DNA of 44,375 nt from Enterobacteria phage mEp237: the sequence record NC_019704.1; one strand, given 5' to 3'. Shown one piece after another: positions 7,824 through 38,419 of the stretch (position 1 is its first letter; the number at the start of each line of letters is the position of its first letter). Under the pieces are notes generated by a model. It was not told the DNA's origin, searched no databases, and saw nothing but the letters and a program-made list of their open reading frames with translations. A program made the translations under genes and the position numbers.

Positions 7824-8378
7824 ATGTCCATAAAAGGCCTTGAACAGGCCATAGAAAACCTTAACAGCATCAGCAAAACGGCTGTTCCGCGGGCATCGGC
7901 GCAGGCCGTTAACCGCGTGGCAAACCGGGCCGTCAGCCGCAGCGTGGCAGTCGTATCAAAAGATACGCGCGTACCGCGAAAACTGGTAAAGCAACGCGCC
8001 AGGGTGAAGCGTGCGACGGTCAATAGACCTCGTGCACTTATCCGGGTAAACCGGGGAAATTTACCGGCCATTAAACTCGGTACCGCAAGCGTGCGACTTT
8101 CCCGCAGAAAACGGGACAAGAAAGGGGCCAACAGCGTTCTGCGCATAGGGCCATTTCGTTTTCCGGGCGGCTTTATCCAGCAACTTAAAAATGGTCGCTG
8201 GCATGTCATGAGGCGGACTTCAAAACCTCGTTACCCCATTGAAGTGGTCAGCATCCCGCTGGCAGCTCCATTAACTACGGCATTTAAAGAAGAACTGCCG
8301 AAGCTCATGGAGTCAGATATGCCCAAAGAGCTCCGGGCATCCCTTACCAACCAACTCAGGTTAATTCTGACACGATGA
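7824..8378 (+). CDS. Z: Tail completion protein (lambda gpZ homolog)
   Basis: 184 aa; similarity to lambda Z (IKGLEQA...NGRWHVM); position after FII. Confidence 0.88.
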   Translation: MSIKGLEQAIENLNSISKTAVPRASAQAVNRVANRAVSRSVAVVSKDTRVPRKLVKQRARVKRATVNRPRALIRVNRGNLPAIKLGTASVRLSRRKRDKKGANSVLRIGPFRFPGGFIQQLKNGRWHVMRRTSKPRYPIEVVSIPLAAPLTTAFKEELPKLMESDMPKELRASLTNQLRLILTR

Positions 8379-8773
8379 AACACAGCGATATTCGCAAGGT
8401 GATTATTGACGCGCTGGAAAGCGCGATTGGTACTGATGTCATTTATTTTGACGGCAGACCTGCAGTGCTCGAAGAGGGTGATTTTCCCGCTGTTGCCGTC
8501 TACCTGACAGATGCGGAATACACAGGGGAAGAACTGGACGCCGATAGCTGGCAGGCCATTCTGCATATCGAAGTCTTTCTTGAGGCTCAGGTACCTGATT
8601 CTGATCTGGATGACTGGATGGAGACGAGAGTGTATCCGGTTCTCGCAGAGGTTCCGGGGCTTGAATCTCTTATCACCACAATGGTTCAGCAGGGCTATGA
8701 CTACCAGCGCGATGACGATATGGCGCTGTGGAGTTCTGCCGACCTGAAATATTCCATTACTTACGACATGTGA
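8375..8773 (+). CDS. U: Tail terminator protein (lambda gpU homolog)
   Basis: 132 aa; strong similarity to lambda U (FDGRPAV...[18 protein letters not shown]); ATGA overlap with Z. Confidence 0.9.
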
Positions 8774-15268: not shown

Positions 15269-18200
15269 ATGGCTACATCTACTCCGATTAGAGGCCGCAA
15301 GGGCGGCAGCTCCAGTTCACGCACCCCGACTGAACAACCAGACGATCTCCAGTCCGTAGCGAAAGCCAAAATTCTTGTTGCACTGGGAGAGGGCGAATTT
15401 GCAGGGCAGTTGACGGCGAAGGATATCTATCTCGATGGCACGCCACTGGAGAATGCAGACGGATCGCAAAACTTCAGTGGCGTGGCGTGGGAATTTCGTC
15501 CGGGGACTCAGGCACAAAAATATATTCAGGGTATCCCCGGCACAGAAAATGAAATCAGCGTGGGCACCGAAGTGTCAAGCACCACCGGCTGGACACATAC
15601 CTTTACCAACACGCAACTGTCAGCCGTTCGCCTGCGCCTCAAGTGGCCATCGCTTTTTAAACAGGAGGATGATGGCGATCTGGTTGGCTATTCAATTAAC
15701 TACGCTATTGATCTGCAGACCGATGGCGGCACCTGGCAGACGGTACTTAATACCAGCGTAACCGGCAAGACAACTTCCGGCTACGAACGCAGCCATCGTA
15801 TCGATTTACCACAGGCAGGCAGTACATGGACGGTGCGCCTGCGTAAGCTTACGGCGGATGCCAACAGCGCGAAAATTGGCGACACGATGACGCTGCAGAG
15901 CTACACAGAGGTTATTGACGCCAAACTGCGTTATCCAAATACCGCGCTGCTGTACATCGAATTCGACTCAAGCCAGTTTAACGGCTCTATCCCGCAAATA
16001 TCCTGCGAACCGCGAGGGCGTGTAATCCGCGTTCCGGATACGTATGACCCGGAGACCCGCACCTACAGCGGCACATGGACAGGGGCGTTTAAGTGGGCGT
16101 GGACGGATAATCCAGCCTGGATTTTTTACGATCTGGTGGTGAGCGACCGCTTTGGGCTGGGCAATCGCCTGACGGCGGCCAATATTGATAAATGGACGCT
16201 TTATCAGGTCGCGCAATATTGCGATCAGCCGGTTCCTGATGGTAAAGGCGGTAGCGGCACTGAGCCTCGCTATACCTGTAACGTGTACGTGCAGGAGAGG
16301 AATGACGCCTATACCGTGTTACGTGATTTTGCGGCGATATTCCGGGGCATGACGTACTGGGGTGGCGATCAAATCGTTGCGCTGGCGGATATGCCCCGCG
16401 ATGTGGATTACAGCTACACGCGTGCAAACGTGGTTAATGGGCGCTTTACCTATTCGGGCAGCACCACCAAAACCCGCTATACCACGGCACTGGTTTCCTG
16501 GTCCGATCCGGGTAATGCCTACGCGGATGCGATGGAGCCTGTATTTGAGCAGGATCTCGTTGCTCGCTTTGGCACAAATCAGCTCGAAATGACAGCCATT
16601 GGTTGTACCCGGCAGTCAGAGGCAAACCGCAAAGGACGTTGGGGTATCCTGACCAATAACAAGGATCGCATCGTGTCGTTCGATGTTGGTCTTGACGGTA
16701 AGATCCCACAGCCTGGTTATATCATCGCGGTTGCCGATGAGCTGCTTTCCGGAAAAGTGATGGGAGGGCGCATCAGCGCGGTTAACGGTCGCGTTATCAC
16801 GCTTGATCGTGATTCGGCAGCCGCTCCCGGAAGCCGTCTGATGGTTAACCTTCCGTCCGGCGCATCGCAGAGCAGGACGATACAGAGCGTAAACGGGCGG
16901 GCCGTCACTGTGACAACGGCATACAGCGAAACACCTGCAGTGGAATCGGTGTGGATTGTCGAGTCTGAAGAGCTTTACGCGCAGCAATATCGCGTTATCA
17001 GCGTTACGGATAATAATGACGGAACGTATTCGATTGCTGGCGCTTTGCACGATCCGGATAAATATGCGCGTATCGATACCGGTGCCATTATCGACCAGCG
17101 GCCAATAAGTGTAATTCCGCCCGGTAATCAGTCCCCGCCAGCTAATATCGCGATCAGTTCGTTTTCTGTCGTTCAGCAGAATATCAGCGTTGAGACCATG
17201 CGCGTCAGCTGGGACCAGGCGAAAAATGCTATCGCGTATGAGGCACAGTGGCGTCGCAATGACGGGAACTGGGTGAATGTGCCGCGCAGCTCCACCACGT
17301 CATTCGATGTTCCGGGGATTTATGCAGGACGCTACCTGGTTCGCGTGCGTGCCATCAATGCCGCCGAAATTTCATCTGGGTGGGGCTATTCAGAAGAGAA
17401 AACGTTGACGGGTAAAGTGGGAAACCCACCGAAGCCGGTTGGCTTCATCGCTTCTGAAAACGTGGTATTCGGTATCGAGCTGAACTGGGGATTCCCGGCG
17501 AATACCGAAGACACGCTGAAGACGGAAATTCAGTACAGCCTGACCGGTAGCGAAGATGATGCAATGCTGCTGGCCGATGTGCCTTATCCGCAGCGCAAAT
17601 ATCAGCAGATGGGTCTTAAGGCAGGGCAGATTTTCTGGTATCGCGCGCAACTGGTCGACAGAACGGGAAACGAGTCCGGGTATACCGACTGGGTGCGAGG
17701 TCAGGCCAGCATCGATGTTTCCGATATCACCGATGTGATCCTGGAGGAGATCAAAGACTCCGCTACGTTTAAAGATCTGATTGAGAGCGCAGTGGACAGC
17801 AATGAAAAAATTGCTGGCATGGCTGACGAAATCAAAAACCATGCAGACGAGCTGGAGCAGCAGGCGAAAGATATACAGGAAAACGCTGACGGGCTGGCGC
17901 AGGCGGCGGTAAAAATCGATGAGATTTCCGTTTCAATGGACGGTATGACAGGAGGCGTGAAGAATTCGGCAATTGCGATAATCCAGAATGGGCTGGCGCA
18001 GGTTGTCAGTCGTCGTTCCCAGACAGCAACAAACGCCGGGAACAGTGCCAGTATAGACAGAGTGGATACTACGATTGCCGATACCAGCCAGGCGGTCGCA
18101 CGCGCGCTGGTCACACTGGATGCAGAAGCTGGTGGCAATATCTCTAACTCAACGGACCTGACAGAAACTCTTGCTGATTTCACCCAGGCTTCGGCAACAA

Positions 18201-21606: not shown

Positions 21607-21873
21607 TTATAGGCCAACCTGGCGAACAGTCGGGAACTCTGAAACCAACCACATATCGGACTCTTCAAACATTTCCTCCAGCATGCGGTTCAGTTTTTCC
21701 CGATCGCTTTTGCTGGCATCGCTGTTTAAGCCGTTCGCCTGCATCGGCTTAACCTTCACTTCTGCATCCGGAAAGATCCGGTGCACTCGCTTTGTTAACT
21801 CATTCAGAATTATTTCTCTGGCACCTGTTAATCCTTCAACATTCCGTTTGTCGTACACCAACTCAACGAACAT
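21607..21873 (-). CDS. dinI: DinI-family protein (MsgA-like)
   Basis: Start MFVELVYDKRN with GGAGG upstream; resembles the remembered DinI-family MsgA sequence (KRVHRIFPDA); LexA box upstream. Confidence 0.8.
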   Translation of the reverse strand: MFVELVYDKRNVEGLTGAREIILNELTKRVHRIFPDAEVKVKPMQANGLNSDASKSDREKLNRMLEEMFEESDMWLVSEFPTVRQVGL

Positions 21874-21911
21874 ACCGCCTCCAAAGCAACAATGATTTTG
21901 CACGCAATTTA

Positions 21912-21930
21912 TACTGTTTATTTATACAGT
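21912..21930. promoter_or_regulatory. LexA (SOS) box upstream of the DinI-like gene
   Basis: TACTGTTTATTTATACAGT: perfect CTGT-N8-ACAG core (21914-21929), about 40 nt upstream of the start codon. Confidence 0.75.
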
Positions 21931-22125: not shown

Positions 22126-22230
22126 TTACCGCGTCACGCAGTTAAAGTGACGGGCATACTCTTCAAGGCTGGTGATCCCCAACCGCACCCATTTAGGATG
22201 CGACCATTGCGGCAGACCGATGTAAATCAT
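22126..22230 (-). pseudogene. 5' fragment of a yecE-like (DUF72) host gene: 34 codons then stop
   Basis: Minus-strand translation [34 protein letters not shown] resembles a DUF72/YecE N-terminus (from memory) and ends prematurely. Confidence 0.55.
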
Positions 22231-22463
22231 AACGCGTGAAGGATCTCTTCCACGCTACGCACACGGGCGATGCGCGGGTAGATATGATTAATGCTGTTAT
22301 TGTGTTGCTCGGCGCTGGCGGCACTACAGGCGTCTTCGGCAATCACCAGATTAAAGCCAAGTTCCCAGGCATTGCGGGCGGTGGATTCAACACCGATATT
22401 GGTCGAGATCCCACATAACACAATTGTATCGATACCTCGGCGGCGTAACCGCACCTCGACCAT
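22227..22463 (-). pseudogene. 3' fragment of an isochorismatase-family hydrolase gene (yecD-like)
   Basis: 78-aa ORF with isochorismatase C-terminal signature ([28 protein letters not shown]...VIAEDACSA); no N-terminal half; reading frame broken just upstream. Confidence 0.65.
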
Positions 22464-22654
22464 ATTGCAGGATTTTACCGTTGGGTAATTTCATCCATCC
22501 ATCACCACTGGCAAAAAAAGCCATATCCGGTATCTGATTTTCCCCTGTTCCCACATCCCGTTTTGCCGCTTCTCCCAAACCAACCTTTCAAATATTTTTC
22601 TGAATCAGGTGATATTTCGCCTCTTCTCCTGTTTTTACAACAGGAGAAGCACTC

Positions 22655-23203
22655 ATGATTTACGGTTATGCCCGAGTATCAACAAACCACCAGGACACTG
22701 AATTGCAACTAACGGCGCTCAAGTCAGCTGGTTGTGAGAAAATTTTTGAAGAGCATGCCAGCGGGAGGAAATCGAATCGGCCGGTTCTAAAACGGCTGAT
22801 CGCCACTATGCAGCCGGGGGATGAACTGGTGGTCTGGAAGCTGGACAGGATAGGCCGCAACGTTCTGCATGCGCTGTTGATGTTCCAGCAGTTACAGGAA
22901 AAGGGTATCAACTTCCGCAGTATTACCGATGGCGTGGATCTCAAAACAGCCAGCGGCCGCTATAACTTTCGTAACATCCTTTCCGCAGCACAATATGAAT
23001 CTGATCTTAATAGCGAACGTACCTTAGCAGGGCTGGCCGTAGCCAGGGCAAAAGGGCGAGTTGGTGGTCGCAGGCCTAAGTTCACGGATGAGCAATGGCG
23101 GGAAATGGGGGAGCGGATGGCAACCGGTGAATCACGACAAAGCGTATCAAAAACGTATGGAGTAGGGCTCTCAACTCTGTATAAAAAGTTTCCAGCTAGC
23201 TGA
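22655..23203 (+). CDS. Serine recombinase, DNA invertase (Hin/Gin/Pin family)
   Basis: 182 aa; N-terminal YARVSTNHQ catalytic Ser motif, VVWKLDRIGRN, C-terminal HTH (GLSTLYKK); GGAG RBS. Confidence 0.92.
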   Translation: MIYGYARVSTNHQDTELQLTALKSAGCEKIFEEHASGRKSNRPVLKRLIATMQPGDELVVWKLDRIGRNVLHALLMFQQLQEKGINFRSITDGVDLKTASGRYNFRNILSAAQYESDLNSERTLAGLAVARAKGRVGGRRPKFTDEQWREMGERMATGESRQSVSKTYGVGLSTLYKKFPAS

Positions 23204-23478
23204 TAACGGGAAAGAAACAGAGAAGGGCACAAATATTGTGTACTTTAATGTGCCCTTTAATTTATTGATTGGTGGTTGAATTGTCCGTAACTTTTTGATT
23301 TAAGTGCAAATTTCTAATAAATTAGAACACTTTCTTAAATTGTCATTTGGCATATTACGAACAATTCCGCGTAAAAACGTTCTGTTACGCTAAACCCTTA
23401 TCCAGTAGGCTTTCAAGGATGTAAACCATAACACTCTGCGAACTAGTGTTACATTGCGTGTAGCTTTGAGTGGGCAAC

Positions 23479-23519
23479 TTTGTGTACACTTTTGTGTACC
23501 CAAAAACAAAAATGTGTAC
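23479..23519. repeat. Three direct repeats of TTTGTGTAC / ATGTGTAC just upstream of int (candidate integrase arm sites)
   Basis: TGTGTAC at 23481-23487, 23494-23500 and 23513-23519; a fourth copy at 23237-23243. Confidence 0.5.
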
Positions 23520-23526
23520 CCATTCA

Positions 23527-24720
23527 ATGATCACCGACACAAAGCTCAGGAAGGCGCTCGGCAAGAAAAGAGATGATATCGAGATTATTTCTGATTCGCA
23601 CGGGCTCAACGCCAGAATCAGCCAGGCCGGAAAAATATCATTTTTCTATCGGTATCGCTGGGCCGGTAAAGCGGTAAAACTCAATGTTGGTGATTATCCT
23701 GCAATGAGTATCACCCAGGCAAGAGAGCGTCGCCAACAATTCAGAAACTGGTTAACTGAGGGACTGGATCCGCGAGAGCAGGTGAAGCTGGATAAGCAGA
23801 CCCGACAGGAAGCGATGTCCGTTGCCGAAGCGTTCAATTACTGGATTGAAAGGCACTGTATCGCTAACGGGCTAGTTAAAGTCGATTACTATCGCCAGGT
23901 GTTTGAGAAACATATCGCCGAACCGATGAAGAATGTCAAAGTCGATAACACAGCGAAAATGCACTGGATCAACGTCTTCGATTCTATAGAAAGCAGGGTG
24001 ATGGCTCATTACATGCTTTCGCTGTGCAAACGGGCGTTTAGGTTCTGCGTTAACAGAAGTGTGATCGCCTCAAACCCACTCGAGGGATTACTGCCATCTG
24101 ATGTCGGGCAAAAGCCTAAAAAGAGAACTCGCAGGATGGACGATGACGATCTGCGCAAAATCTATCAGTGGTTGAAAAGCCATATGTCGATAGAGTCCGT
24201 TTTCCTGGTGAAATTTATTATGCTTACCGGATGCCGTACGGCTGAGATTCGACTTAGTGAGAGATCATGGTTTCGATTGGATGATAATGAGTGGGTCGTG
24301 CCTGCGGGCAGTTATAAAACTCGGGTACATATTAGAAGGGGACTCTCAGACGCCGCCGTTAACCTGGTCAGAAATCACCTCAAGAAAATAAACACCAATC
24401 ACCTGGTGACTTCACAACGTAAAATTGATGGCGGGATCAAAGATTCGCCCGTTCATTCACCTGTGGCATCCAATTACGCCCGTTCTATTTGGAATGGAAC
24501 AGGTATGGCAGAGTGGTCGCTTCATGATATGAGGCGGACGATAGCCACAAATCTCTCTGAGTTAGGTTGCCCGCCGCACGTAATTGAAAAGCTGCTCGGG
24601 CATCAGATGGTGGGGGTTATGGCGCATTACAACCTTCATGACTATATCGATGATCAGAAACACTGGCTCCGCGTTTGGCAGAGCCATCTTGAAGAGATCA
24701 TCGGAGAGCCCTTCAGTTAA
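23527..24720 (+). CDS. int: Tyrosine integrase (P4-like phage integrase family)
   Basis: Start MITDTKLRK typical of P4-like integrases; C-terminal catalytic region (HDMRRT..., LLGHQ...HYNLHDY); track start 23470 and ATG 23512 are alternatives. Confidence 0.92.
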
Positions 24721-29789: not shown

Positions 29790-30122
29790 GATGTTCTCCA
29801 GTTTTCTGAGTGAACTTCGCTGGTGGTGCCGTGACGCTGATCTTCACGGTTGAGCTTTTTCACTCTGCAATTCACCACCGCGAAGCTCACTTCTGTGTTT
29901 GCCCTTGTCGCCAGGCTGGCGGAACGTTTCAAACCTACTGCGCGTTAATCTCACCACCTCATTCCGGTTTTCGTATGCCCCGGACGGCTACTTCGTGGGC
30001 GTCCTGCCTCGGTGGTTGTGTTGATGGAGTAAGTAAAACACCGCTTTACCATTAAGTCAAGCAATGCAGATGCAAAAGGTAAAGCATAGCTGTATGTTGG
30101 GCGAAATTTATCCAGATTAGAG

Positions 30123-30408: not shown

Positions 30409-30822
30409 CTACCCAAATGGTAGCTCAATATTCTTGATAGTTGTTGGCTTAAGTATTTGTTCACATTGTGTTTTAAAGAATATTTTTACGTTATATTCAA
30501 AGAACCATCGGTTTTCATCAAGTAATTCTGGTGTTAAATCGATACTGTCTGGATAAGTGAATACTAAACGTAAACCAAATTGCAGGTTAAACGTTTCATG
30601 GATTGCCCCATCACTGGTCGTGCTGAGACCTACAACCTTTGGGGAAGCAGTTATCTCAATTATACTTAGTGCTTCATCGGATTTTAATTTTTTACCGGCT
30701 TCGACAGTAATCTCACCGATCTCAGCTTCAAAATTGCCCCTATTAGTACCACTTTTCAAAGGGGTATGCTTGAAATGTATGTTGCTAGTGCTGACCTCAA
30801 TGAGCCTTATCTCTGATAACAT
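30409..30822 (-). CDS. Unknown protein, third gene of the AT-rich operon
   Basis: 137 aa; about 30% GC; overlaps the preceding gene by 16 nt; no family recognised. Confidence 0.65.
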   Translation of the reverse strand: MLSEIRLIEVSTSNIHFKHTPLKSGTNRGNFEAEIGEITVEAGKKLKSDEALSIIEITASPKVVGLSTTSDGAIHETFNLQFGLRLVFTYPDSIDLTPELLDENRWFFEYNVKIFFKTQCEQILKPTTIKNIELPFG

Positions 30823-31253
30823 AAAATACCCACATCATTGTTGTCGTTGCTAGAGCCAAACTTACTTCCTATCACAAAGCGCACAATTTTTGTTTCACTA
30901 GTATCTTTCAGTTCGGGTTCACTAGTCTCATATTGCCTTAATGGTGGAATGATGTGATGTGAGACATCAACCCCATTTCTGAAAACAGAGACCCTTGCTT
31001 CAGCACCCAGTGCGTATGATATGTCGGATAATGTTCTCAGGGTCATGTTTCTGGTTCCATCAAGCAGCTGCGAAACATGGGAAGGTGATTTACCAAGTTT
31101 CCTGGCAAGCTCACCTTTGGTGATGCCTGCATCTTGCATGGCTAGTAGGAGATCCTCCGTGGTGTTGAACACCAATCGTTCGGAAGCCATCTCCCTTTCA
31201 CTGACATAGGGAAGTTCGAAAACTTCGCCTGCAGAATTGTTGTCAACAGTCAT
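30807..31253 (-). CDS. XRE-family HTH protein with N- and C-terminal extensions, second gene of the operon
   Basis: 148 aa; HTH_3-like core (ITKGELARKLGKSPSHVSQLLDGTRNMTLRTLSDISYALG); GAGAGAGGA RBS; overlaps both neighbours. Confidence 0.75.
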   Translation of the reverse strand: MTVDNNSAGEVFELPYVSEREMASERLVFNTTEDLLLAMQDAGITKGELARKLGKSPSHVSQLLDGTRNMTLRTLSDISYALGAEARVSVFRNGVDVSHHIIPPLRQYETSEPELKDTSETKIVRFVIGSKFGSSNDNNDVGILCYQR

Positions 31254-31650
31254 CTAATCCTCTCTCGATTCGTTCCCAGTTGTTACGGACCTTCTGGGTA
31301 TCAGAATCACTTAGGTCATCAAAATCCTTGTAGATGTAATGACTTATGAAATAAGTCATGAATACTCTTTCTGACTCCCAGTAATAACCTCTGATGGGTA
31401 TCTTCTTTATAGCCCAAAAATTTTTGCTGGGTTTTCCATTGTAAGAAGGTAAAACCCCCTCCTTTCTAACACTTAGGTCGGGAGTCCTCTTACCAGAGGC
31501 TAATCGCTCTATTTGTAGTCTAAGATTGACTACCATAGTTTTTTGCTTTTTGGCTGGAGTCACGCTCCGGATGACATCAGATAGCGTTTTAAGAGCCCCA
31601 TTACAATGAGTTACTGTGAAGCAGTTACCTTTAAATGTATGTTGAACCAT
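31243..31650 (-). CDS. Unknown protein, first gene of the operon
   Basis: 135 aa; AT-rich; palindromic operator-like element upstream; no family recognised (RelE/HigB-like fold is only a guess). Confidence 0.65.
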   Translation of the reverse strand: MVQHTFKGNCFTVTHCNGALKTLSDVIRSVTPAKKQKTMVVNLRLQIERLASGKRTPDLSVRKEGVLPSYNGKPSKNFWAIKKIPIRGYYWESERVFMTYFISHYIYKDFDDLSDSDTQKVRNNWERIERGLDDC

Positions 31651-31929: not shown

Positions 31930-32121
31930 TCACAATAACACCATTACTGTAACCACTACGAATGCTATCAATAGCACTGCCATAACGATGACCGCAAAAG
32001 TTGTTGAGTCCTTAAAGTAAGTCTTTTCATGCCCATTCACAGGACCAATGAGCATGATCCAGATGAAAATGAAGGTAAAGCAAAGAACAGCGATGGAAAT
32101 TAAAAACAGGCCAGTTTTCAA
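31930..32121 (-). CDS. Small membrane protein (two predicted TM helices), TTG start
   Basis: 63 aa, strongly hydrophobic (LFLISIAVLCFTFIFIWIMLIGPV ... FAVIVMAVLLIAFVVVTVMVLL); GAGGGA RBS; sits directly downstream of the repressor genes. Confidence 0.5.
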   Translation of the reverse strand: MKTGLFLISIAVLCFTFIFIWIMLIGPVNGHEKTYFKDSTTFAVIVMAVLLIAFVVVTVMVLL

Positions 32122-32153: not shown

Positions 32154-32546
32154 TTACTCAGAATCACCCTTAATCCGCCGCCCCATATACTTGGCGTACA
32201 GTTCATCGAGTTCCTTCAGGCGCAGTGATACCGCCTTAAGAACTCCACTCTGATCCTCTTCGGGGAGTTGACGGAAAAAACGTAAAAGCTCTTGCTCATT
32301 ACTTTTTAATCCATCATTGGGCCCTATATCCTGCCCCAAAACCCAGGCTAAATTCACACCAAGCGCATCAGCTAGCTTAAGTGCGGAGTTTTTTCCAATA
32401 GTTCCCCTTACAAACCAGTTGTTAACCGACTGGGATGTTACGCCACAAATTCTGGCCAGATCTGCTTTTGAGAGATGTTTACTATTCGTGATCTCATTGA
32501 GTCGTCTGACCTGTGGGTTATCTGATTCGTGTGTATTTTTTCTCAT
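32154..32546 (-). CDS. DicA/RacR-like HTH repressor paralog (no peptidase domain)
   Basis: N-terminal XRE HTH (LSKADLARICGVTSQSVNNWF) and C-terminal LPEEDQ...LRLKELDELYAKYM segment shared with the adjacent paralog; start taken at internal ATG. Confidence 0.75.
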   Translation of the reverse strand: MRKNTHESDNPQVRRLNEITNSKHLSKADLARICGVTSQSVNNWFVRGTIGKNSALKLADALGVNLAWVLGQDIGPNDGLKSNEQELLRFFRQLPEEDQSGVLKAVSLRLKELDELYAKYMGRRIKGDSE

Positions 32547-32565
32547 GTACAAGAGTATCACTTAG

Positions 32566-32949
32566 CTAATCAGCATCGCCCCTGATTCTGCGATTCATGT
32601 ACTTGGCATATAGTTCATCGAGTTCCTTCAGACGCAGGGAGAAGATCCTTATCATATTCTGCTGTTCTTCTTCCGGTAACTGTCTGTAGAGCTCCAGAAT
32701 ACGTTGTTCATCAGGCTTAAGGCCATCCTTCTCTCCAACATCCTCACCAAGTAGCCAGGGGACGGATACCCCAGCAGCATCAGCAACCGCTAATGCAGAA
32801 CTTTTGCTGATTCTTCCTGTTTTGAACCAACTGGAAACAGCTTGCTTACTGACGCCAGCAACCCTGGCCATCTCTGTTTTAGAGAAACCTTTCCGGTTCA
32901 GTTCTGTAAGCCTGGAGATCAGCCCAGTAGTCATTGTGTTTTCGCTCAT
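32566..32949 (-). CDS. DicA/RacR-like phage repressor (CI analog without S24 peptidase domain)
   Basis: HTH (FSKTEMARVAGVSKQAVSSWF) plus C-terminal LPEEEQ...LRLKELDELYAKYM domain; divergent from the cro-like gene; start could be 32934, 32949 or 33033. Confidence 0.8.
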   Translation of the reverse strand: MSENTMTTGLISRLTELNRKGFSKTEMARVAGVSKQAVSSWFKTGRISKSSALAVADAAGVSVPWLLGEDVGEKDGLKPDEQRILELYRQLPEEEQQNMIRIFSLRLKELDELYAKYMNRRIRGDAD

Positions 32950-32958
32950 TTCACTAGT

Positions 32959-33024
32959 GTAAATGATTGCTTTACCAGTAGGTAGGCATTCATTGATTGA
33001 CTCATTGGTAAAATGATGCTTTAC
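32959..33024. promoter_or_regulatory. Divergent immunity promoter/operator region with two dyad-symmetric operator-like sites
   Basis: GTAAATGATTGCTTTAC (32959-32975) and GTAAAATGATGCTTTAC (33008-33024), each GTAAA-N-TTTAC, 49 bp apart; candidate -35 TTGACT at 32997-33002. Confidence 0.55.
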
Positions 33025-33046
33025 TTTTTCCATCTAAGGAGGTCCT

Positions 33047-33271
33047 ATGACTGGTATTGAGAAAGCTATTCAAAAGTTTGGCACAGGTGCGGCACTCGGA
33101 AGAGCGCTTGGATTTTCAAAAATGACAATTTCCAACTGGAAGAAAACTGGCATTCCGCCCGATCACATTCGCTCTGTTTTTGAGCTTACGGGAGTCACCC
33201 CGCATGAGTTGCGGCCTGACTTATATCCCAATCCAACCGATGCCTTACCAGTGCAAGAAACGAGGGCATAA
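33047..33271 (+). CDS. Cro-like / YdaS-family HTH regulator
   Basis: 74 aa; divergent from the repressor; YdaS/Cro-like pattern (GTGAALGRALGFSKMTISNWKKTG...ELRPDLYP); AGGAGG RBS. Confidence 0.8.
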   Translation: MTGIEKAIQKFGTGAALGRALGFSKMTISNWKKTGIPPDHIRSVFELTGVTPHELRPDLYPNPTDALPVQETRA

Positions 33272-33273
33272 CC

Positions 33274-33813
33274 ATGCAGTCACTGTCACTTCATCAAAAT
33301 AGCGGATATCAACCGGCTGCGATGATAAATCGCAATCAACCTGTCTCGGTAGATAAACATGACCAGATCCGCGATGCCGTTCGTGCGTGGGCGGGTGTAG
33401 ATGGTCAGGATGTCGTTTCTGCTCTGATCATCGAAGAGTACCAGGCTCAAGGGGGAGACGAGATCACTTTCCCTGATGACCTCAGCCGACAGCGTCAGAA
33501 GCTTTTCCGCTTTCTGGATAACCATTTCAACAGCGAACGGTACCGCGAAAACGTTCGCCAGCTGACTCCGGCAATCCTCGCTGTCCTGCCGATTGAATAC
33601 CGCAATCGTCTGCTACCAGAAGACAACGTAATGGCTCGTCTGGCAAGGCTGGAGAAGGAAACCAGCGAAGCGAAGATTGCTGTCGCAATGGATGCGCCAC
33701 GTCATCAGAAGCTGAAAGAGTTGAGCGAGGGGATCGTGGAGATGTATCGCGTTGACCCTGGGTTAACCGGTCCGTTGATGGAAATGGTGCAGATTATGCT
33801 GGGGGCTATATGA
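33274..33813 (+). CDS. CII-like / YdaT-like early regulator
   Basis: 179 aa at the cII position between cro-like and O; family assignment from memory only. Confidence 0.5.
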   Translation: MQSLSLHQNSGYQPAAMINRNQPVSVDKHDQIRDAVRAWAGVDGQDVVSALIIEEYQAQGGDEITFPDDLSRQRQKLFRFLDNHFNSERYRENVRQLTPAILAVLPIEYRNRLLPEDNVMARLARLEKETSEAKIAVAMDAPRHQKLKELSEGIVEMYRVDPGLTGPLMEMVQIMLGAI

Positions 33814-36047: not shown

Positions 36048-36452
36048 GTGGATTACGGGAAGCAGCGGAGAAGGCGACGAAAGGCGGGTGGGCTGCACGT
36101 AGGGGAGGTGAAAACCACTCTTGCGGTCGATGAATACGACGAACATCGCGCGCAGCTGGCGTTGGAGTTCCTGCGTAAGTACTGCGGTGAGGATTGCGAC
36201 GGGCTGGTAGATATTGACAGAATCACTTTTCGCATCGTTGATATCGGTATGCGGATGCTGCAACCGCACGAGCTATACCGCGTGCAGGGCTTCCCGGAGT
36301 GGTACATCATCGATCAGGACTATCGGGGGCAGAAGTACGCGAAGGACAAGCAGGTTGCGCGTTGTGGCAACGCAGTTCCGCCGCCATTCGCCGAGGCACT
36401 GGTGAGAGCTAATTTACCGGAGCTTTGTCAGCAGAAAGAGATCGCAGCTTAA
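36048..36452 (+). pseudogene. Truncated DNA cytosine-5 methyltransferase (C-terminal fragment only)
   Basis: Only C-terminal motifs present (RMLQPHELYRVQGFPEWY, ARCGNAVPPPFAEAL); no motif I/IV region upstream; a diverged second copy of the last about 20 codons lies at 36975-37040. Confidence 0.65.
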
Positions 36453-36551
36453 TGTCCGAGTTTCAGAACATGGTGTAACAAATCCTGCTACTTCAATGAC
36501 GTAGATTCAAACCTGATATAATTAGGCTCTTCACAACACGAGGAGCCTAAA

Positions 36552-36788
36552 ATGCACCATTACATGATCCCTATCAACGGAACTGTTCACCTGATCAAGA
36601 CTGACTCTCTAATCCCTGAAGGGACTGAGTATAGCTTTGAAGGAGAAAGTCTAATCTGCGCTCATGCCACTTTTAAATCTGGGACGTATGGCTTCCTGAT
36701 ACCAAAGGGAAATCAGTTGAATAGAGAGCATGCGTTCTGGCATGTAAGTGGAATTCACCCTAATCCCCTGGGAATGGATAAATCGTAA
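36552..36788 (+). CDS. Hypothetical protein in a cassette inserted into the methyltransferase remnant
   Basis: 78-aa ORF with GAGGAG RBS; followed by a 14-bp-stem hairpin. Confidence 0.5.
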   Translation: MHHYMIPINGTVHLIKTDSLIPEGTEYSFEGESLICAHATFKSGTYGFLIPKGNQLNREHAFWHVSGIHPNPLGMDKS

Positions 36789-37057
36789 TCCATAATATGC
36801 ATGCCATCGTCCTGAACATACGGTGGCATGCATCCGGCACTACAACAGAAACGTTAAAGTGCAAACAATACAATTCGAGCAATATTCAACCTGTCACAGA
36901 TGGCGAATACCACCGCCATTTCGTGCATTCTGTGGTTTCTATTACCCATTGCGTTAATGCTGTCCAATCATCAGCTCGCTGAGGCGCTGGTTAGGGCTAA
37001 CCTACAGGAGCTTTGTCAGCAGAAACAAATAGCGGCGTAATAAAACATCGCTAATTC

Positions 37058-37085
37058 AACCCGCTACGGCGGGTTTTCTTTTTTT
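37058..37085 (+). terminator. Intrinsic terminator after the methyltransferase remnant
   Basis: Stem AACCCGC / GCGGGTT with loop TACG, followed by an 11-nt T-rich run. Confidence 0.7.
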
Positions 37086-37147
37086 ACTACTGACAGAAAA
37101 TTAACAATTTGTGCTCTTAAAACGTTGATCATTTCCGCGCATAGGTA

Positions 37148-37167
37148 TACTGTATAAAAACACAGTA
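37148..37167. promoter_or_regulatory. LexA (SOS) box upstream of the second DinI-like gene
   Basis: TACTGTATAAAAACACAGTA: perfect CTGT-N8-ACAG (37150-37165), about 20 nt upstream of the start codon. Confidence 0.78.
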
Positions 37168-37185
37168 CATGCAATGGGGGCCATT

Positions 37186-37419
37186 ATGAAAGTTGAATTA
37201 ACCATTGATCGCATGAAAGAACTTCCTAAAGGCGCAGTACCAGCACTGGAGAAAGAACTGCTTAAGCGCCTGAATGATCACTATGACAATTGCAGGCTCA
37301 CAATCCGCCGTGCCGGGGCCGATGGGTTAAGTGTTTTTGGTGGTGACAAGGACGATAAAAAGAAAATTGAATCAATCCTCCAGGATACCTGGGAAAGCGC
37401 TGACGACTGGTTTTATTAG
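37186..37419 (+). CDS. dinI: DinI-family protein
   Basis: 77 aa from MKVELTIDR; matches remembered E. coli DinI pattern including C-terminal ESILQDTWESADDWF; G-rich RBS. Confidence 0.88.
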   Translation: MKVELTIDRMKELPKGAVPALEKELLKRLNDHYDNCRLTIRRAGADGLSVFGGDKDDKKKIESILQDTWESADDWFY

Positions 37420-37536: not shown

Positions 37537-37785
37537 GTGAGTGATTCAGCTTTGCAAACGTCAGAAGACAACTGGTATGACATTGTAAGAAGGTCTGACG
37601 GCTGCGTGGTGTTTAGCTTTCCTTCATCGGGCAGGCATCTAATTTATCGCGTCAATGGCATGGTTTCTATGCGGCCTTTGCTGGATGATGAAGAGGTCTT
37701 TACTCCTAATGGTTTTATGCAATTTATCCGCCGTCTCGGCTACCGGGTAACACCACCTTCTGATAATATGAAATCAACGGTCTGA
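37537..37785 (+). CDS. Hypothetical protein (GTG start), downstream of the LexA-controlled dinI
   Basis: 82-aa ORF with AAGGGAG RBS 9 nt upstream of GTG. Confidence 0.5.
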   Translation: MSDSALQTSEDNWYDIVRRSDGCVVFSFPSSGRHLIYRVNGMVSMRPLLDDEEVFTPNGFMQFIRRLGYRVTPPSDNMKSTV

Positions 37786-37819: not shown

Positions 37820-38419
37820 ATGGCGCACGAACTACAACTCATTAAGCAGTCCTCAGGAATTCTGATCCCCGCTACGCCGGAGACCAGCGATATTCTGCAA
37901 TCAAAAATCAAACTTGGTGCCGTATTGGTAGCCGAATTTCGTCAGGTGAGGAATCCAGCATTCCATCGCCGTTTCTTTGCGCTCCTGAATCTCGGGTTTG
38001 AATACTGGGAACCCACCGGTGGGGCGATTTCTTCCAATGAACGTAAATTGGTGACCGGGTACGCTAAATTCCTCGCGGCATTTGGTGGAAACGAAGGCGC
38101 ACTGCTGGATGCTGCCGAGCAGTATCTGGACCGTATCGCCGATAAGCGCGCCGGTAGTATCAGCATCTGCAAATCCTATGACGCATATCGTGCATGGGTG
38201 ATCATCGAGTCTGGCCACTACGACGCCATACAGCTTCCCGACGGCACCCTTCGCAAACACCCCCGCAGCATTGCCTTTGCCAACATGGACGAAACCGAGT
38301 TCCAGCAGCTGTACAAAGCCGCGCTCGATGTTCTGTGGCGCTGGGTATTGTCCCGGGCATTCAAGGACCAGCGTGAAGCGGAAAACGCCGCATCGCAGCT
38401 CATGAGCTTTGCGGGGTGA
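37820..38419 (+). CDS. Hypothetical nin-region protein
   Basis: 199-aa ORF with GGAGAGA RBS; family not determined. Confidence 0.6.
   Translation: MAHELQLIKQSSGILIPATPETSDILQSKIKLGAVLVAEFRQVRNPAFHRRFFALLNLGFEYWEPTGGAISSNERKLVTGYAKFLAAFGGNEGALLDAAEQYLDRIADKRAGSISICKSYDAYRAWVIIESGHYDAIQLPDGTLRKHPRSIAFANMDETEFQQLYKAALDVLWRWVLSRAFKDQREAENAASQLMSFAG

What the first reader, a model, noticed from the sequence alone, without database searches (positions are those of the whole stretch)
32154..33033. Two tandem paralogous DicA/RacR-type repressors lacking a RecA-cleavable peptidase domain
The immunity region encodes two adjacent HTH proteins that share a C-terminal segment (LPEE.Q...LRLKELDELYAKYM.RRI.GD), and that segment is also about 90% identical at the DNA level (32157-32225 versus 32566-32636), pointing to recent duplication or gene conversion. 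Neither has an S24 peptidase domain, so induction cannot be by RecA-stimulated autocleavage. The shared dimerisation-like segment could allow heterodimers.
Basis: partly seen in the sequence, partly recalled or inferred. Interest (0 to 1): 0.6.

Follow-up and report, generated by a model that had tools for sequence, protein, structure and literature searches.

The report
Phage repressor plus a hitch-hiking second repressor
This phage's immunity region holds an ordinary Gifsy-type repressor, which a DNA-damage-induced antirepressor switches off, followed by a conserved second repressor of another immunity type that has no binding sites in its own genome and probably silences rival phages.

Summary
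The two adjacent helix-turn-helix genes are real paralogues (55% identity, E 2e-49) and neither has an S24 peptidase domain. They are not a recent duplication or gene conversion. DNA identity over the quoted segment is 78%, not about 90%, and that tail is conserved across the whole family.

The window is coliphage mEp237. Gene B, next to cro, is an orthologue of GfhR, the Gifsy-3 repressor (86% identity, identical operators). Gene A is GfoR-type (Gifsy-1 of ATCC14028). The window also carries the published induction machinery: LexA box, dinI, a GfoA-type antirepressor and an irsA-like gene. Induction without RecA cleavage is therefore already explained.

What is new is gene A. Its own phage has no cognate operators, whereas stand-alone A-type prophages carry four perfect ones. 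It has no cro partner and lies 19 bp downstream of B. It is under strong purifying selection (dN/dS 0.02-0.12) and recurs behind at least three different primary immunity types. One C-terminal subtype (FRQLPxEDQ) was seen only in such downstream copies.

My best reading is that A is a "rider" repressor giving cross-immunity against A-type phages. This is inferred, not shown. It is a new variant of a known kind and of moderate interest.

The parts
32566..32952 (-). Gene B, short form (128 aa): primary immunity repressor and GfhR (Gifsy-3) orthologue
   Evidence: 86% identity over 154 aa to the GfhR-type protein of L133, with an identical HTH. L133 was identified through the published gfhR primers. 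The model has a 5-helix HTH, helix 80-90 and a long helix 94-124, pLDDT 87.8. For Gifsy-3 the short form is the main product and its promoter lies between the two AUGs.
32953..33033 (-). In-frame upstream extension of B (155-aa long form, equivalent to GfhR*). It overlaps both OR operators and ends 13 bp from the cro start.
   Evidence: ORF 32566..33033. The N-terminus MEKVKHH matches MTKVKHH of the long gfhR construct. In Gifsy-3 the long form accumulates only on mitomycin C induction. The 155-aa form is the one annotated in databases.
32154..32546 (-). Gene A (mEp237_038, 130 aa): second, downstream 'rider' repressor of GfoR type. An alternative in-frame GTG lies at 32561.
   Evidence: 61% identity to GfoR-type L136, with the same recognition helix SQSVNNWFVRGTIGK. 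Exact match to AFM76193.1. dN/dS is 0.08-0.12 against other downstream copies. The ORF is intact in all 10 loci examined.
32547..32565 (-). B-A junction (19 nt) with no promoter-like or terminator-like site and no Shine-Dalgarno sequence
   Evidence: Sequence. The same junction is found in L001, L002, L141 and L147 behind three different primary immunity types. The scan found no minus-strand promoter or terminator here.
32959..32975 (.). OR operator next to the start of B (GTAAATGATTGCTTTAC)
   Evidence: Perfect GTAAA-N7-TTTAC site. Identical to an operator of the Gifsy-3-type loci L130, L132, L133 and L147.
33008..33024 (.). OR operator overlapping the candidate PR promoter (GTAAAATGATGCTTTAC)
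   Evidence: It overlaps the -35 TTGACT (32997-33002), the 17-nt spacer and the -10 TTTACT (33020-33025). The promoter assignment is a consensus match only.
33047..33271 (+). cro analogue (YdaS family), divergent from B
   Evidence: PF15943, E 4.5e-12. Nearly identical to the cro of the GfhR-type locus L133.
33274..33813 (+). cII analogue (YdaT family)
   Evidence: PF06254, E 2e-25. YdaT as a functional equivalent of CII: PMC9986795 abstract.
30033..30049 (.). OL operator 1 (GTAAAACACCGCTTTAC), upstream of the leftward kil/ydaE/recET operon
   Evidence: Third perfect site in the window. A degenerate partner, GTAAAGCATAGCTGTAT, lies at 30079-30095, 46 bp away, which is the spacing seen in the OL pairs of related phages.
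37148..37167 (+). LexA box TACTGTATAAAAACACAGTA, preceded by a terminator-like hairpin at about 37060-37086
   Evidence: Perfect CTGT-N8-ACAG. Sequence. The layout matches that described for all Gifsy prophages, and the box is nearly identical to the one in primer pp752.
37174..37419 (+). dinI homologue, first gene of the SOS operon
   Evidence: NF007893 E 4e-26 and phrog_189.
37537..37785 (+). GfoA/GfhA-type antirepressor (82 aa, GTG start)
   Evidence: 90-93% identical to the ORF between dinI and irsA in loci that carry gfoR or gfhR. Its termini match the gfoA primers, (M)SNSALQK... and ...RRLGYRVTPPSD. It co-occurs with this repressor family in eight distinct sequenced phages. phrog_340, 'unknown function'.
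37820..38419 (+). irsA-like / NinB-like gene, third gene of the SOS operon
   Evidence: 86% identical to Gifsy-1 STM2620; phrog_319.

Best explanation
The window is coliphage mEp237, and 32154-33033 is the repressor side of a Gifsy-type immunity region.

Gene B:
- B is a GfhR orthologue and the primary repressor.
- As a dimer it should bind the asymmetric GTAAAGC-N4-WTTTAC operators at OR (32959-32975, 33008-33024) and OL (30033-30049). This would shut off the cro/cII-like rightward operon and the kil/recET leftward operon.
- B is not cleaved on induction. DNA damage removes LexA from the box at 37148-37167, the dinI-antirepressor-irsA operon is expressed, and the 82-aa GfoA-type antirepressor binds the repressor and takes it off the DNA.

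Gene A:
- A is a second, complete repressor with a GfoR-type DNA-binding domain. It was brought in by recombination, not made by local duplication.
- It is co-transcribed with B from the maintenance promoter, in the position that rexAB holds in lambda.
- It has no operators or cro of its own in the phage.
- In a lysogen it most likely acts in trans, repressing incoming or co-resident phages whose operators are TAAAC-N5-GTTTA. That would give the lysogen a second immunity specificity.

What is shown and what is inferred:
- Shown here: homology, the operator sets, the absence of A-type operators, purifying selection on A, and recurrence of the arrangement.
- Shown by others for the orthologues: no cleavage, LexA control, antirepressor action, and cross-reaction of GfoA/GfhA on both GfoR and GfhR.
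- Inferred: co-transcription, A's DNA specificity, its cross-immunity role and its sensitivity to the antirepressor.
For: Identity of the phage and of B:
- Exact protein matches to mEp237 AFM76193-76196.
- The primers in Table S1 of PMC3121763 give the termini of gfhR, gfoR and gfoA. Exact-match scans recovered Gifsy-type loci.
- B is 86% identical to GfhR, with an identical HTH and identical OR operators.

SOS operon:
- LexA box, dinI, an ORF 90-93% identical to the GfoA-type ORF, and irsA 86% identical to Gifsy-1 STM2620.
- Published biology of the orthologues.

A is not a local duplicate:
- A is 55% identical to B, but 61% to GfoR and 74-82% to A-type repressors elsewhere.
- In L002 both copies equal stand-alone repressors. 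The downstream copy is protein-identical to L007 and L067, and the upstream copy's DNA-binding domain is identical to those of L021, L115, L117 and L119.

A has no targets in cis:
- Stand-alone A-type prophages, including E. coli L153, carry four perfect TAAAC-N5-GTTTA sites, an OR pair and an OL pair.
- The window has none, even with one mismatch allowed.
- No other tandem locus has a perfect site.

A is functional:
- N-domain dN/dS is 0.12, 0.08 and 0.02 among downstream copies, with pS 0.40-0.55.
- pS is saturated (0.73-0.97) against pN 0.11-0.29 between old downstream lineages.
- The 90% cluster has 61 members; the 15 listed are 130 or 134 aa.

Recurrence:
- All 9 distinct contexts of exact B carry an A-type gene downstream.
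- P0078 (6 of 6 places shown), P0079 (1 place standing for 24 contigs) and P0108 (8 of 8 places shown) are always downstream copies.
- The viable Salmonella phage SEN34 has the same layout.
- The primary repressor comes in at least three operator types behind a shared junction.

Precedent for the proposed role:
- Mycobacteriophage Mcgavigan carries an acquired foreign repressor that gives heterotypic immunity and is dispensable for lysogeny (PMC12700041).
Against: - No experiment or transcript data for A. Its translation start has no Shine-Dalgarno sequence, so expression rests on the selection argument alone.
- A's specificity is inferred from a shared recognition helix. Its N-domain is only about 78% identical to the nearest stand-alone repressors.
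- A-type and B-type operators are related (both TAAA-N7-TTTA), so A might bind the phage's own operators.
- A-type single prophages are rare in E. coli, 11 of 5426 complete genomes. The benefit in that host may therefore be small, although such prophages are abundant in the Klebsiella, Citrobacter, Enterobacter and Salmonella records retrieved.
- The distinct C-terminal subtype of downstream copies is not explained by simple cross-immunity.
Confidence: 0.55

Rival explanations
1. A works on mEp237 itself. It could act as a co-repressor or modulator at OR/OL, alone or as an A-B heterodimer through the shared C-terminal helices. It could also act as a sponge for the antirepressor, setting the induction threshold.
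For: - Both proteins share the C-terminal helix pair, modelled with high confidence.
- Gifsy repressors elute as dimers and bind the antirepressor as A2B2.
- A-type and B-type operators share TAAA-N7-TTTA, and some B-type operators contain a TAAAC half-site.
- A sits in the same operon as B.
Against: - Gifsy-3 and 77 of the 80 closest B-type loci run the identical switch without A.
- Downstream copies tend to have a different C-terminal subtype from their partner. Partner identity in that part is 0.63 (window), 0.78 (L002) and 0.50 (SEN34), against 0.67-0.85 for most enterobacterial A-type singles compared with B. This points away from heterodimers.
- The same A lineage sits behind three operator types.
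Confidence: 0.2
2. A is a passenger left by recombination between two heteroimmune phages and has no function of its own.
For: - It has no cognate operators or cro, and no Shine-Dalgarno sequence.
- Tandems are rare: 4 of 5426 E. coli genomes, 0 of the 33 species-representative loci with a family hit, and 3 of the 80 closest B-type loci.
- The region is highly mosaic.
Against: - dN/dS is 0.02-0.12, with saturated synonymous divergence between downstream lineages.
- No truncated alleles were seen among the cluster members listed or the 10 loci examined.
- The arrangement persists across E. coli, Salmonella, Citrobacter and an isolated phage.
Confidence: 0.1
3. One reading: a recent in-place duplication, or gene conversion, produced two copies that share a dimerisation segment.
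For: - 55% protein identity between neighbours.
- A 20-nt exact run, and 78% DNA identity in the last 24 codons against 55% in the N-domain.
Against: - The tail is conserved family-wide. A's tail is 92% identical to that of L003, an unrelated single repressor, and 78% to B's.
- B's entire C-terminal half is 100% identical in DNA to the upstream copy of L002, while their N-domains are 63% identical. That is the signature of mosaic exchange with other phages.
- Synonymous codon identity between A and B is low: 0.41 in the N-domain, 0.27 in the middle segment and 0.55 in the tail.
- Each copy has closer relatives that stand alone.
Confidence: 0.03

Closest known systems
GfhR/GfoR repressors and GfoA/GfhA antirepressors of Salmonella Gifsy-3 and Gifsy-1 (Lemire, Figueroa-Bossi and Bossi 2011, PMC3121763)
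   Same: - B is a GfhR orthologue (86% identity), with identical operators and a near-identical cro.
- A has a GfoR-type DNA-binding domain.
- The window has the same LexA box, dinI, antirepressor and irsA operon.
- B has the same two in-frame starts as GfhR/GfhR*.
- In that system one antirepressor inactivates both heteroimmune repressors.
   Different: - In Salmonella ATCC14028 the two repressor types sit in two separate prophages, each with its own operators and cro.
- Here both sit in one operon of one phage, and the GfoR-type copy has neither operators nor cro.
- A's C-terminal part is of a subtype not seen in stand-alone repressors.
DicA of the Qin prophage with its antirepressor Rem (PMC10448788)
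   Same: A short HTH repressor with the L.P.E..LLELF..LPE.EQ C-terminal helices. It has no cleavage site and is relieved by a small antirepressor distantly related to GfoA.
   Different: - Only 26-30% identity.
- Scores of 29-32 bits against a cut-off of 101 for the DicA model.
- A single gene, and Rem's inducing signal is unknown.
Bxb1-like repressor acquired by mycobacteriophage Mcgavigan (PMC12700041)
   Same: A foreign, second repressor carried by a temperate phage. It is dispensable for its own lysogeny and gives lysogens immunity to a heterotypic phage group. This is the role proposed for A.
   Different: - Unrelated proteins and hosts.
- There the function was shown by deletion; here it is inferred.
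- Here the second repressor is a paralogue of the primary one, lies immediately downstream of it, and probably shares its antirepressor.
SinR/SinI of Bacillus subtilis, and repressor-AimX complexes of SPbeta-like phages
   Same: An HTH domain followed by C-terminal helices that mediate oligomerisation and are the target of a small protein antagonist. SinR/SinI was the top Foldseek hit, 1b0n_A.
   Different: The structural match is weak: E 0.03, TM 0.43-0.52, and no hit at E<=0.001. There is no sequence relationship beyond the HTH.
Lambda cI-rexA-rexB
   Same: An exclusion function co-transcribed with the repressor from the maintenance promoter and expressed in lysogens.
   Different: Rex proteins are not repressors, and the co-transcription is only inferred here.

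Membership tests
Gifsy-type antirepressor-controlled repressors (GfoR/GfhR group) | Short protein (about 130-155 aa) with an N-terminal Cro/CI-type HTH and no S24 peptidase domain | tested here: met
   A is 130 aa and B is 128 or 155 aa. Both match HTH_3 and Phage_CI_repr, and no S24 family appears at E<=0.1.
Gifsy-type antirepressor-controlled repressors (GfoR/GfhR group) | Sequence homology to GfhR or GfoR | tested here: met
   B is 86% identical to the GfhR-type protein of L133. A is 61% identical to the GfoR-type protein of L136. Both loci were identified by exact matches to the published primers.
Gifsy-type antirepressor-controlled repressors (GfoR/GfhR group) | Cognate operator pairs at OR and OL, and a divergent cro-like gene | tested here: met
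   Met for B: operators at 32959-32975, 33008-33024 and 30033-30049, and cro at 33047. Not met for A: no TAAAC-N5-GTTTA site in the window even with one mismatch, and no cro partner.
Gifsy-type antirepressor-controlled repressors (GfoR/GfhR group) | A LexA-controlled dinI-antirepressor-irsA operon in the same phage | tested here: met
   LexA box 37148-37167, dinI, a GfoA-type ORF at 90-93% identity, and irsA-like at 86%.
Gifsy-type antirepressor-controlled repressors (GfoR/GfhR group) | The repressor is not cleaved on induction. Antirepressor binding displaces it from DNA. | not testable with these tools
   Shown for the Gifsy repressors. It needs Western blots, pull-downs and EMSA for the mEp237 proteins.
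DicA (NCBIfam NF007257) | Score above the curated cut-off of the DicA model | tested here: not met
   28.6 and 31.9 bits against a cut-off of 101, although the alignment spans nearly the whole profile. BLASTP to K-12 DicA gives 26-30% identity, E 1e-9.
RacR | Full-length homology to RacR of the Rac prophage | tested here: not met
   Only 27 residues of the HTH align, E 1e-4. The neighbouring ydaS and ydaT homologues are present.
LexA/lambda CI-type autocleaving repressors | C-terminal S24 peptidase domain with a Ser/Lys dyad | tested here: not met
   No Peptidase_S24 hit. The C-terminal part is modelled as two helices.
SinR-like HTH plus helical-hook repressors | Significant structural match of the C-terminal oligomerisation helices | tested here: inconclusive
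   1b0n_A is the top hit, but at E 0.03 with rmsd 11.8. No hit at E<=0.001. The profile search of solved structures matches only the HTH.

The most novel reading that the evidence does not exclude
Downstream 'rider' repressors form an old, dedicated lineage. Their private C-terminal subtype (FRQLPxEDQ) may have evolved so that they neither heterodimerise with the primary repressor nor respond to the shared GfoA-type antirepressor. On DNA damage mEp237 would then be induced while A stays active. A would keep rival A-type prophages or incoming phages silent, even though those rivals' own repressors had been inactivated. That would be repressor-based sabotage of competitors, the mirror image of the antirepressor crosstalk described for the Gifsy phages.
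Probability: 0.12. Interest if true: 0.75.

Novelty: new variant of a known kind. Interest (0 to 1): 0.42.

Why it matters
The family, its operator logic and its induction route are already known, so most of the finding is ordinary.

What remains is a temperate enterobacterial phage that carries, behind its own repressor, a second repressor of another immunity type with no binding sites in its own genome. That gene is kept under purifying selection and travels with several different primary immunity modules. If it confers cross-immunity, immunity specificity in lambdoid and Gifsy-like phages would be additive and tradable like a moron. Prophage competition in Salmonella and E. coli would then involve trans-acting repressors as well as the trans-acting antirepressors already described.

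There are practical consequences too:
- Gene A and the antirepressor are currently annotated as a hypothetical or generic 'helix-turn-helix domain-containing' protein.
- The 155-aa annotation of B probably describes the induction-specific long form.

Tried and rejected
- **S24 or other C-terminal domains.** Pfam, NCBIfam, PHROGs and PADLOC give only HTH families.
- **Solved structures by sequence.** Only the HTH matches.
- **Gene conversion between A and B.** Rejected by the codon-level comparison.
- **A-type operators in the window.** None at 0-1 mismatch. The looser TTAAAC-N5-GTTTAA scan (up to 3 mismatches) gives 23 hits against 14.5 expected, none in a regulatory position. The generic TAAA-N7-TTTA scan finds only the three B operators plus two sites inside coding sequence, at 16189 and 30474.
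- **Similarity of the 82-aa ORF to GftA of LT2 Gifsy-1.** None. It is GfoA-type instead.
- **RacR homology.** HTH only.
- **Megablast of the region against the phage collection.** Only a 236-nt match to phage PHB10, so mEp237 itself appears not to be in that collection.
- **Literature on mEp237.** Nothing on its immunity region.
- **Literature on tandem or second repressors in enterobacterial phages.** No direct report found. These were limited full-text searches, so absence is not proof.
- **Not attempted.** A second structure job for A seemed unlikely to add anything.
Full report
**1. What is there**

Two minus-strand ORFs lie head to tail at 32154..32561 and 32566..33033.
- They are paralogues: 65/118 identical, E 2e-49.
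- Both match HTH_3 and Phage_CI_repr. No S24 peptidase or any other C-terminal family appears even at E<=0.1.
- On the other strand follow a YdaS-family cro analogue (33047-33271), a YdaT-family cII analogue (33274-33813) and replication genes.
- Exact protein look-ups identify the window as Enterobacteria phage mEp237. A is AFM76193.1 (mEp237_038), B is AFM76194.1, and the cro and cII analogues are AFM76195 and AFM76196.

**2.

- The shared C-terminal motif is real.
- The DNA identity over the quoted coordinates is 78% (54/69), with a longest exact run of 20 nt, not about 90%.
- The operator guess is correct. Perfect GTAAA-N7-TTTAC sites lie at 32959-32975 and 33008-33024, and a third lies at 30033-30049 upstream of the leftward kil/ydaE/recET operon. 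At up to one mismatch the scan gave 7 matches against 0.87 expected, and these three are the perfect ones.
- A candidate PR promoter (TTGACT, 17 nt, TTTACT, 32997-33025) is overlapped by the second site.

**3. Which family**

Their short repressors are not cleaved. Small antirepressors inactivate them, and these are encoded in a LexA-controlled dinI-antirepressor-irsA operon (PMC3121763).

Table S1 of that paper gives primer sequences that contain the ends of gfhR, gfoR and gfoA. Exact-match scans with them retrieved Gifsy-type loci, which gave the full proteins.
- B is 86% identical to the GfhR-type protein, with an identical helix-turn-helix.
- The two OR operators of those loci are identical to the window's, and the cro is nearly identical.
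- A is 61% identical to the GfoR-type protein and has the same recognition helix, SQSVNNWFVRGTIGK.

The window also holds the induction operon:
- a terminator-like hairpin and the LexA box TACTGTATAAAAACACAGTA;
- dinI;
- an 82-aa ORF that is 90-93% identical to the ORF in the same position in gfoR- and gfhR-bearing loci, and whose termini match the gfoA primers;
- an irsA-like gene 86% identical to Gifsy-1 STM2620.

This 82-aa ORF co-occurs with the repressor family in eight distinct sequenced phages. It is unrelated to GftA of LT2 Gifsy-1.

DicA is a distant full-length relative at 26-30% identity, far below the NCBIfam cut-off. RacR matches only in the HTH.

Like GfhR, B has two in-frame starts. 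In Gifsy-3 the short form is the main product, with its promoter between the two AUGs. The long form (GfhR*) appears on induction. By homology, ATG 32952 gives the maintenance repressor. The annotated 155-aa ORF from 33033, which runs across both operators, corresponds to the long form.

**4. Not a duplication**

Across 119 loci with a family member, 110 have one repressor and 9 have two. The N-terminal domains fall into two types:
- A-type (GfoR-like);
- B-type (GfhR-like and relatives).

Every stand-alone locus has a stereotyped switch: two 15-bp sites about 47-49 bp apart between repressor and cro, and another pair at OL. A-type phages use TAAAC-N5-GTTTA.

In every tandem the cro-proximal gene is B-type and the distal gene is A-type.

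Codon-level comparison shows the following:
- A's tail is 92% identical to that of L003, an unrelated single repressor, but 78% to B's.
- B's whole C-terminal half is 100% identical in DNA to the proximal gene of E. coli 1368KP (L002), while their N-domains are 63% identical.
- A's residues 81-106 are only 42% identical to the consensus-type copies compared, which share 73-92% among themselves.

In L002 the distal protein is identical to the single repressors of L007 and L067. The proximal N-domain is identical to those of the singles L021, L115, L117 and L119.

The pair is therefore a juxtaposition of two heteroimmune repressors in a highly mosaic region. The shared tail reflects family-wide conservation. 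That conservation is plausibly because the C-terminal helices carry dimerisation and antirepressor recognition, which would fit the published cross-reaction of GfoA and GfhA on both GfoR and GfhR. This last point is inference.

**5. Gene A is an orphan, but it is kept**

- The window has no TAAAC-N5-GTTTA site even with one mismatch, and no other tandem locus has a perfect one. Stand-alone A-type prophages, including E. coli B18271 (L153), have four perfect sites.
- A has no cro partner. It starts 19 nt after B's stop, with no promoter-like or terminator-like site between them and no Shine-Dalgarno sequence. Co-transcription with B is the simplest reading. An in-frame GTG four bases after B's stop could allow translational coupling, but that is speculative.
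- A is not decaying. dN/dS of the DNA-binding domain among distal copies is 0.12, 0.08 and 0.02, at pS 0.40-0.55.
- Between older distal lineages synonymous sites are saturated (pS 0.73-0.97) while pN is 0.11-0.29 in both halves.
- The ORF is intact in all loci examined. The 15 listed members of the 61-member 90% cluster are 130 or 134 aa.

**6. The arrangement recurs**

- All nine distinct contexts of exact B carry an A-type gene downstream, while the flanking morons and replication genes vary.
- Relatives P0078, P0079 and P0108 are distal copies in every place shown. The nearest stand-alone relative, P0077, sits next to its own cro.
- The isolated Salmonella phage SEN34 has the same layout.
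- E. coli and Salmonella tandems share one junction sequence behind three primary operator types: GTAAAGC..., TAAACCA...ATTTA and TTAAGCC.... L235 and SEN34 have other junctions.
- Tandems are nevertheless a minority: 4 of 5426 complete E. coli genomes, against 11 with an A-type single; 3 of the 80 closest B-type viral contigs; and none of the 33 species-representative loci with a family hit.
- A C-terminal subtype, FRQLP(E/D)EDQ, was found only in distal copies: the A cluster, the P0108 type, L173 and SEN34_42. Singles and proximal copies have YRQLPEEEQQ or YNQLPNEEEQ.
- Some distal copies (L002, L154, P0078, P0079) carry the ordinary subtype, so this is a tendency and not a rule.

**7. Structure**

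An AlphaFold2 model of short B (pLDDT 87.8) has a five-helix HTH domain, a linker, helix 80-90 and a long helix 94-124. No solved structure matches significantly. The best Foldseek hits are SinR/SinI (E 0.03) and phage repressors complexed with small antirepressors. This is a resemblance in architecture and is not evidence of family membership.

**8. Interpretation**

With high confidence:
- B is the GfhR-type maintenance repressor.
- Induction runs through LexA and the GfoA-type antirepressor.

With moderate confidence:
- A is a functional second repressor expressed from the maintenance operon that acts in trans on phages with A-type operators, giving lysogens a second immunity specificity.
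- A functional precedent exists in mycobacteriophage Mcgavigan. Its acquired Bxb1-like repressor gives heterotypic immunity and is dispensable for lysogeny.

Rivals:
- A acts at the phage's own operators or titrates the antirepressor.
- A is a passenger, which the selection data make unlikely.

Not resolved by any of my data: whether A is sensitive to the antirepressor, and why distal copies tend to have their own C-terminal subtype.

**9. Verdict**

- The duplication/conversion interpretation is wrong.
- The induction puzzle is already solved in the literature and by genes present in this window.
- The orphan 'rider' repressor is a modestly novel variant worth a simple genetic test.

Noticed in passing
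window 21607-21929: A second perfect LexA box (CTGTTTATTTATACAG, 21914-21929) lies just upstream of a minus-strand DinI-like ORF (21607..21903, MFVELVYDK...) at the end of the tail-fibre region. The phage therefore carries two SOS-controlled dinI-type genes.
   Followed up: no
window 30409-31650: A three-gene minus-strand cassette lies between gene A and OL: a 135-aa protein with no family, a 148-aa HTH protein with PADLOC PDC-M64B/C hits (E 5e-10), and a 137-aa phrog_19522 protein. It is followed by the only terminator-like site of the region (30404-30383). A similar three-gene set of matching sizes follows the single repressor in Citrobacter locus L148. It may be a defence or toxin-antitoxin moron in the maintenance transcript.
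   Followed up: partly
window 31930-32121: A small hydrophobic ORF (63 aa) lies immediately downstream of gene A. Related loci annotate a 32-aa YoaK-family small membrane protein at this position (L001, L123, L148).
   Followed up: no
window 36388-36453 and 36976-37041: A 66-nt direct repeat (82% identity) duplicates the 3' end of the ORF ending at 36452 (...EALVRANLPELCQQKEIAA). The repeat flanks a 588-bp insert that carries a 78-aa ORF (36552-36788). It looks like a moron insertion just upstream of the SOS operon's terminator.
   Followed up: partly
window 30474-30488: An operator-like site, TAAAGAATATTTTTA (one mismatch to GTAAA-N7-TTTAC), lies inside the 3' part of the 30409-30822 gene, about 440 bp from OL. 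It could be chance or a remote auxiliary operator.
   Followed up: no
window 22227-24720: Between the tail genes and recT lie three features: a short ORF (22227-22463) with isochorismatase-like sequence, a Pin/Hin-type invertase-like ORF (22655-23203), and an integrase-like ORF on the plus strand (23470-24720). The last is in the opposite orientation to recET, unlike the Rac layout as I recall it. These assignments come from reading the translations only.
   Followed up: no
L005 (Klebsiella phage ST974-OXA48phi18.2, MK448237.1) 8001-8512: The stand-alone A-type repressor there is annotated 'putative repressor Cro', and a 39-aa ORF after it is annotated 'CI transcriptional regulator'. GfoA-type antirepressors are annotated 'hypothetical protein' in every phage record seen. 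Annotation of this module is generally poor.
   Followed up: no
L004 8504-8518 (Salmonella phage SEN34), also L109-L112 at 3504: A site with one mismatch to the A-type operator (TAAACTTAATCTTTA) lies about 100 bp downstream of SEN34's distal repressor gene and is conserved in the SEN34-like contigs. It is the only hint of a possible in-cis target for a distal copy.
   Followed up: no
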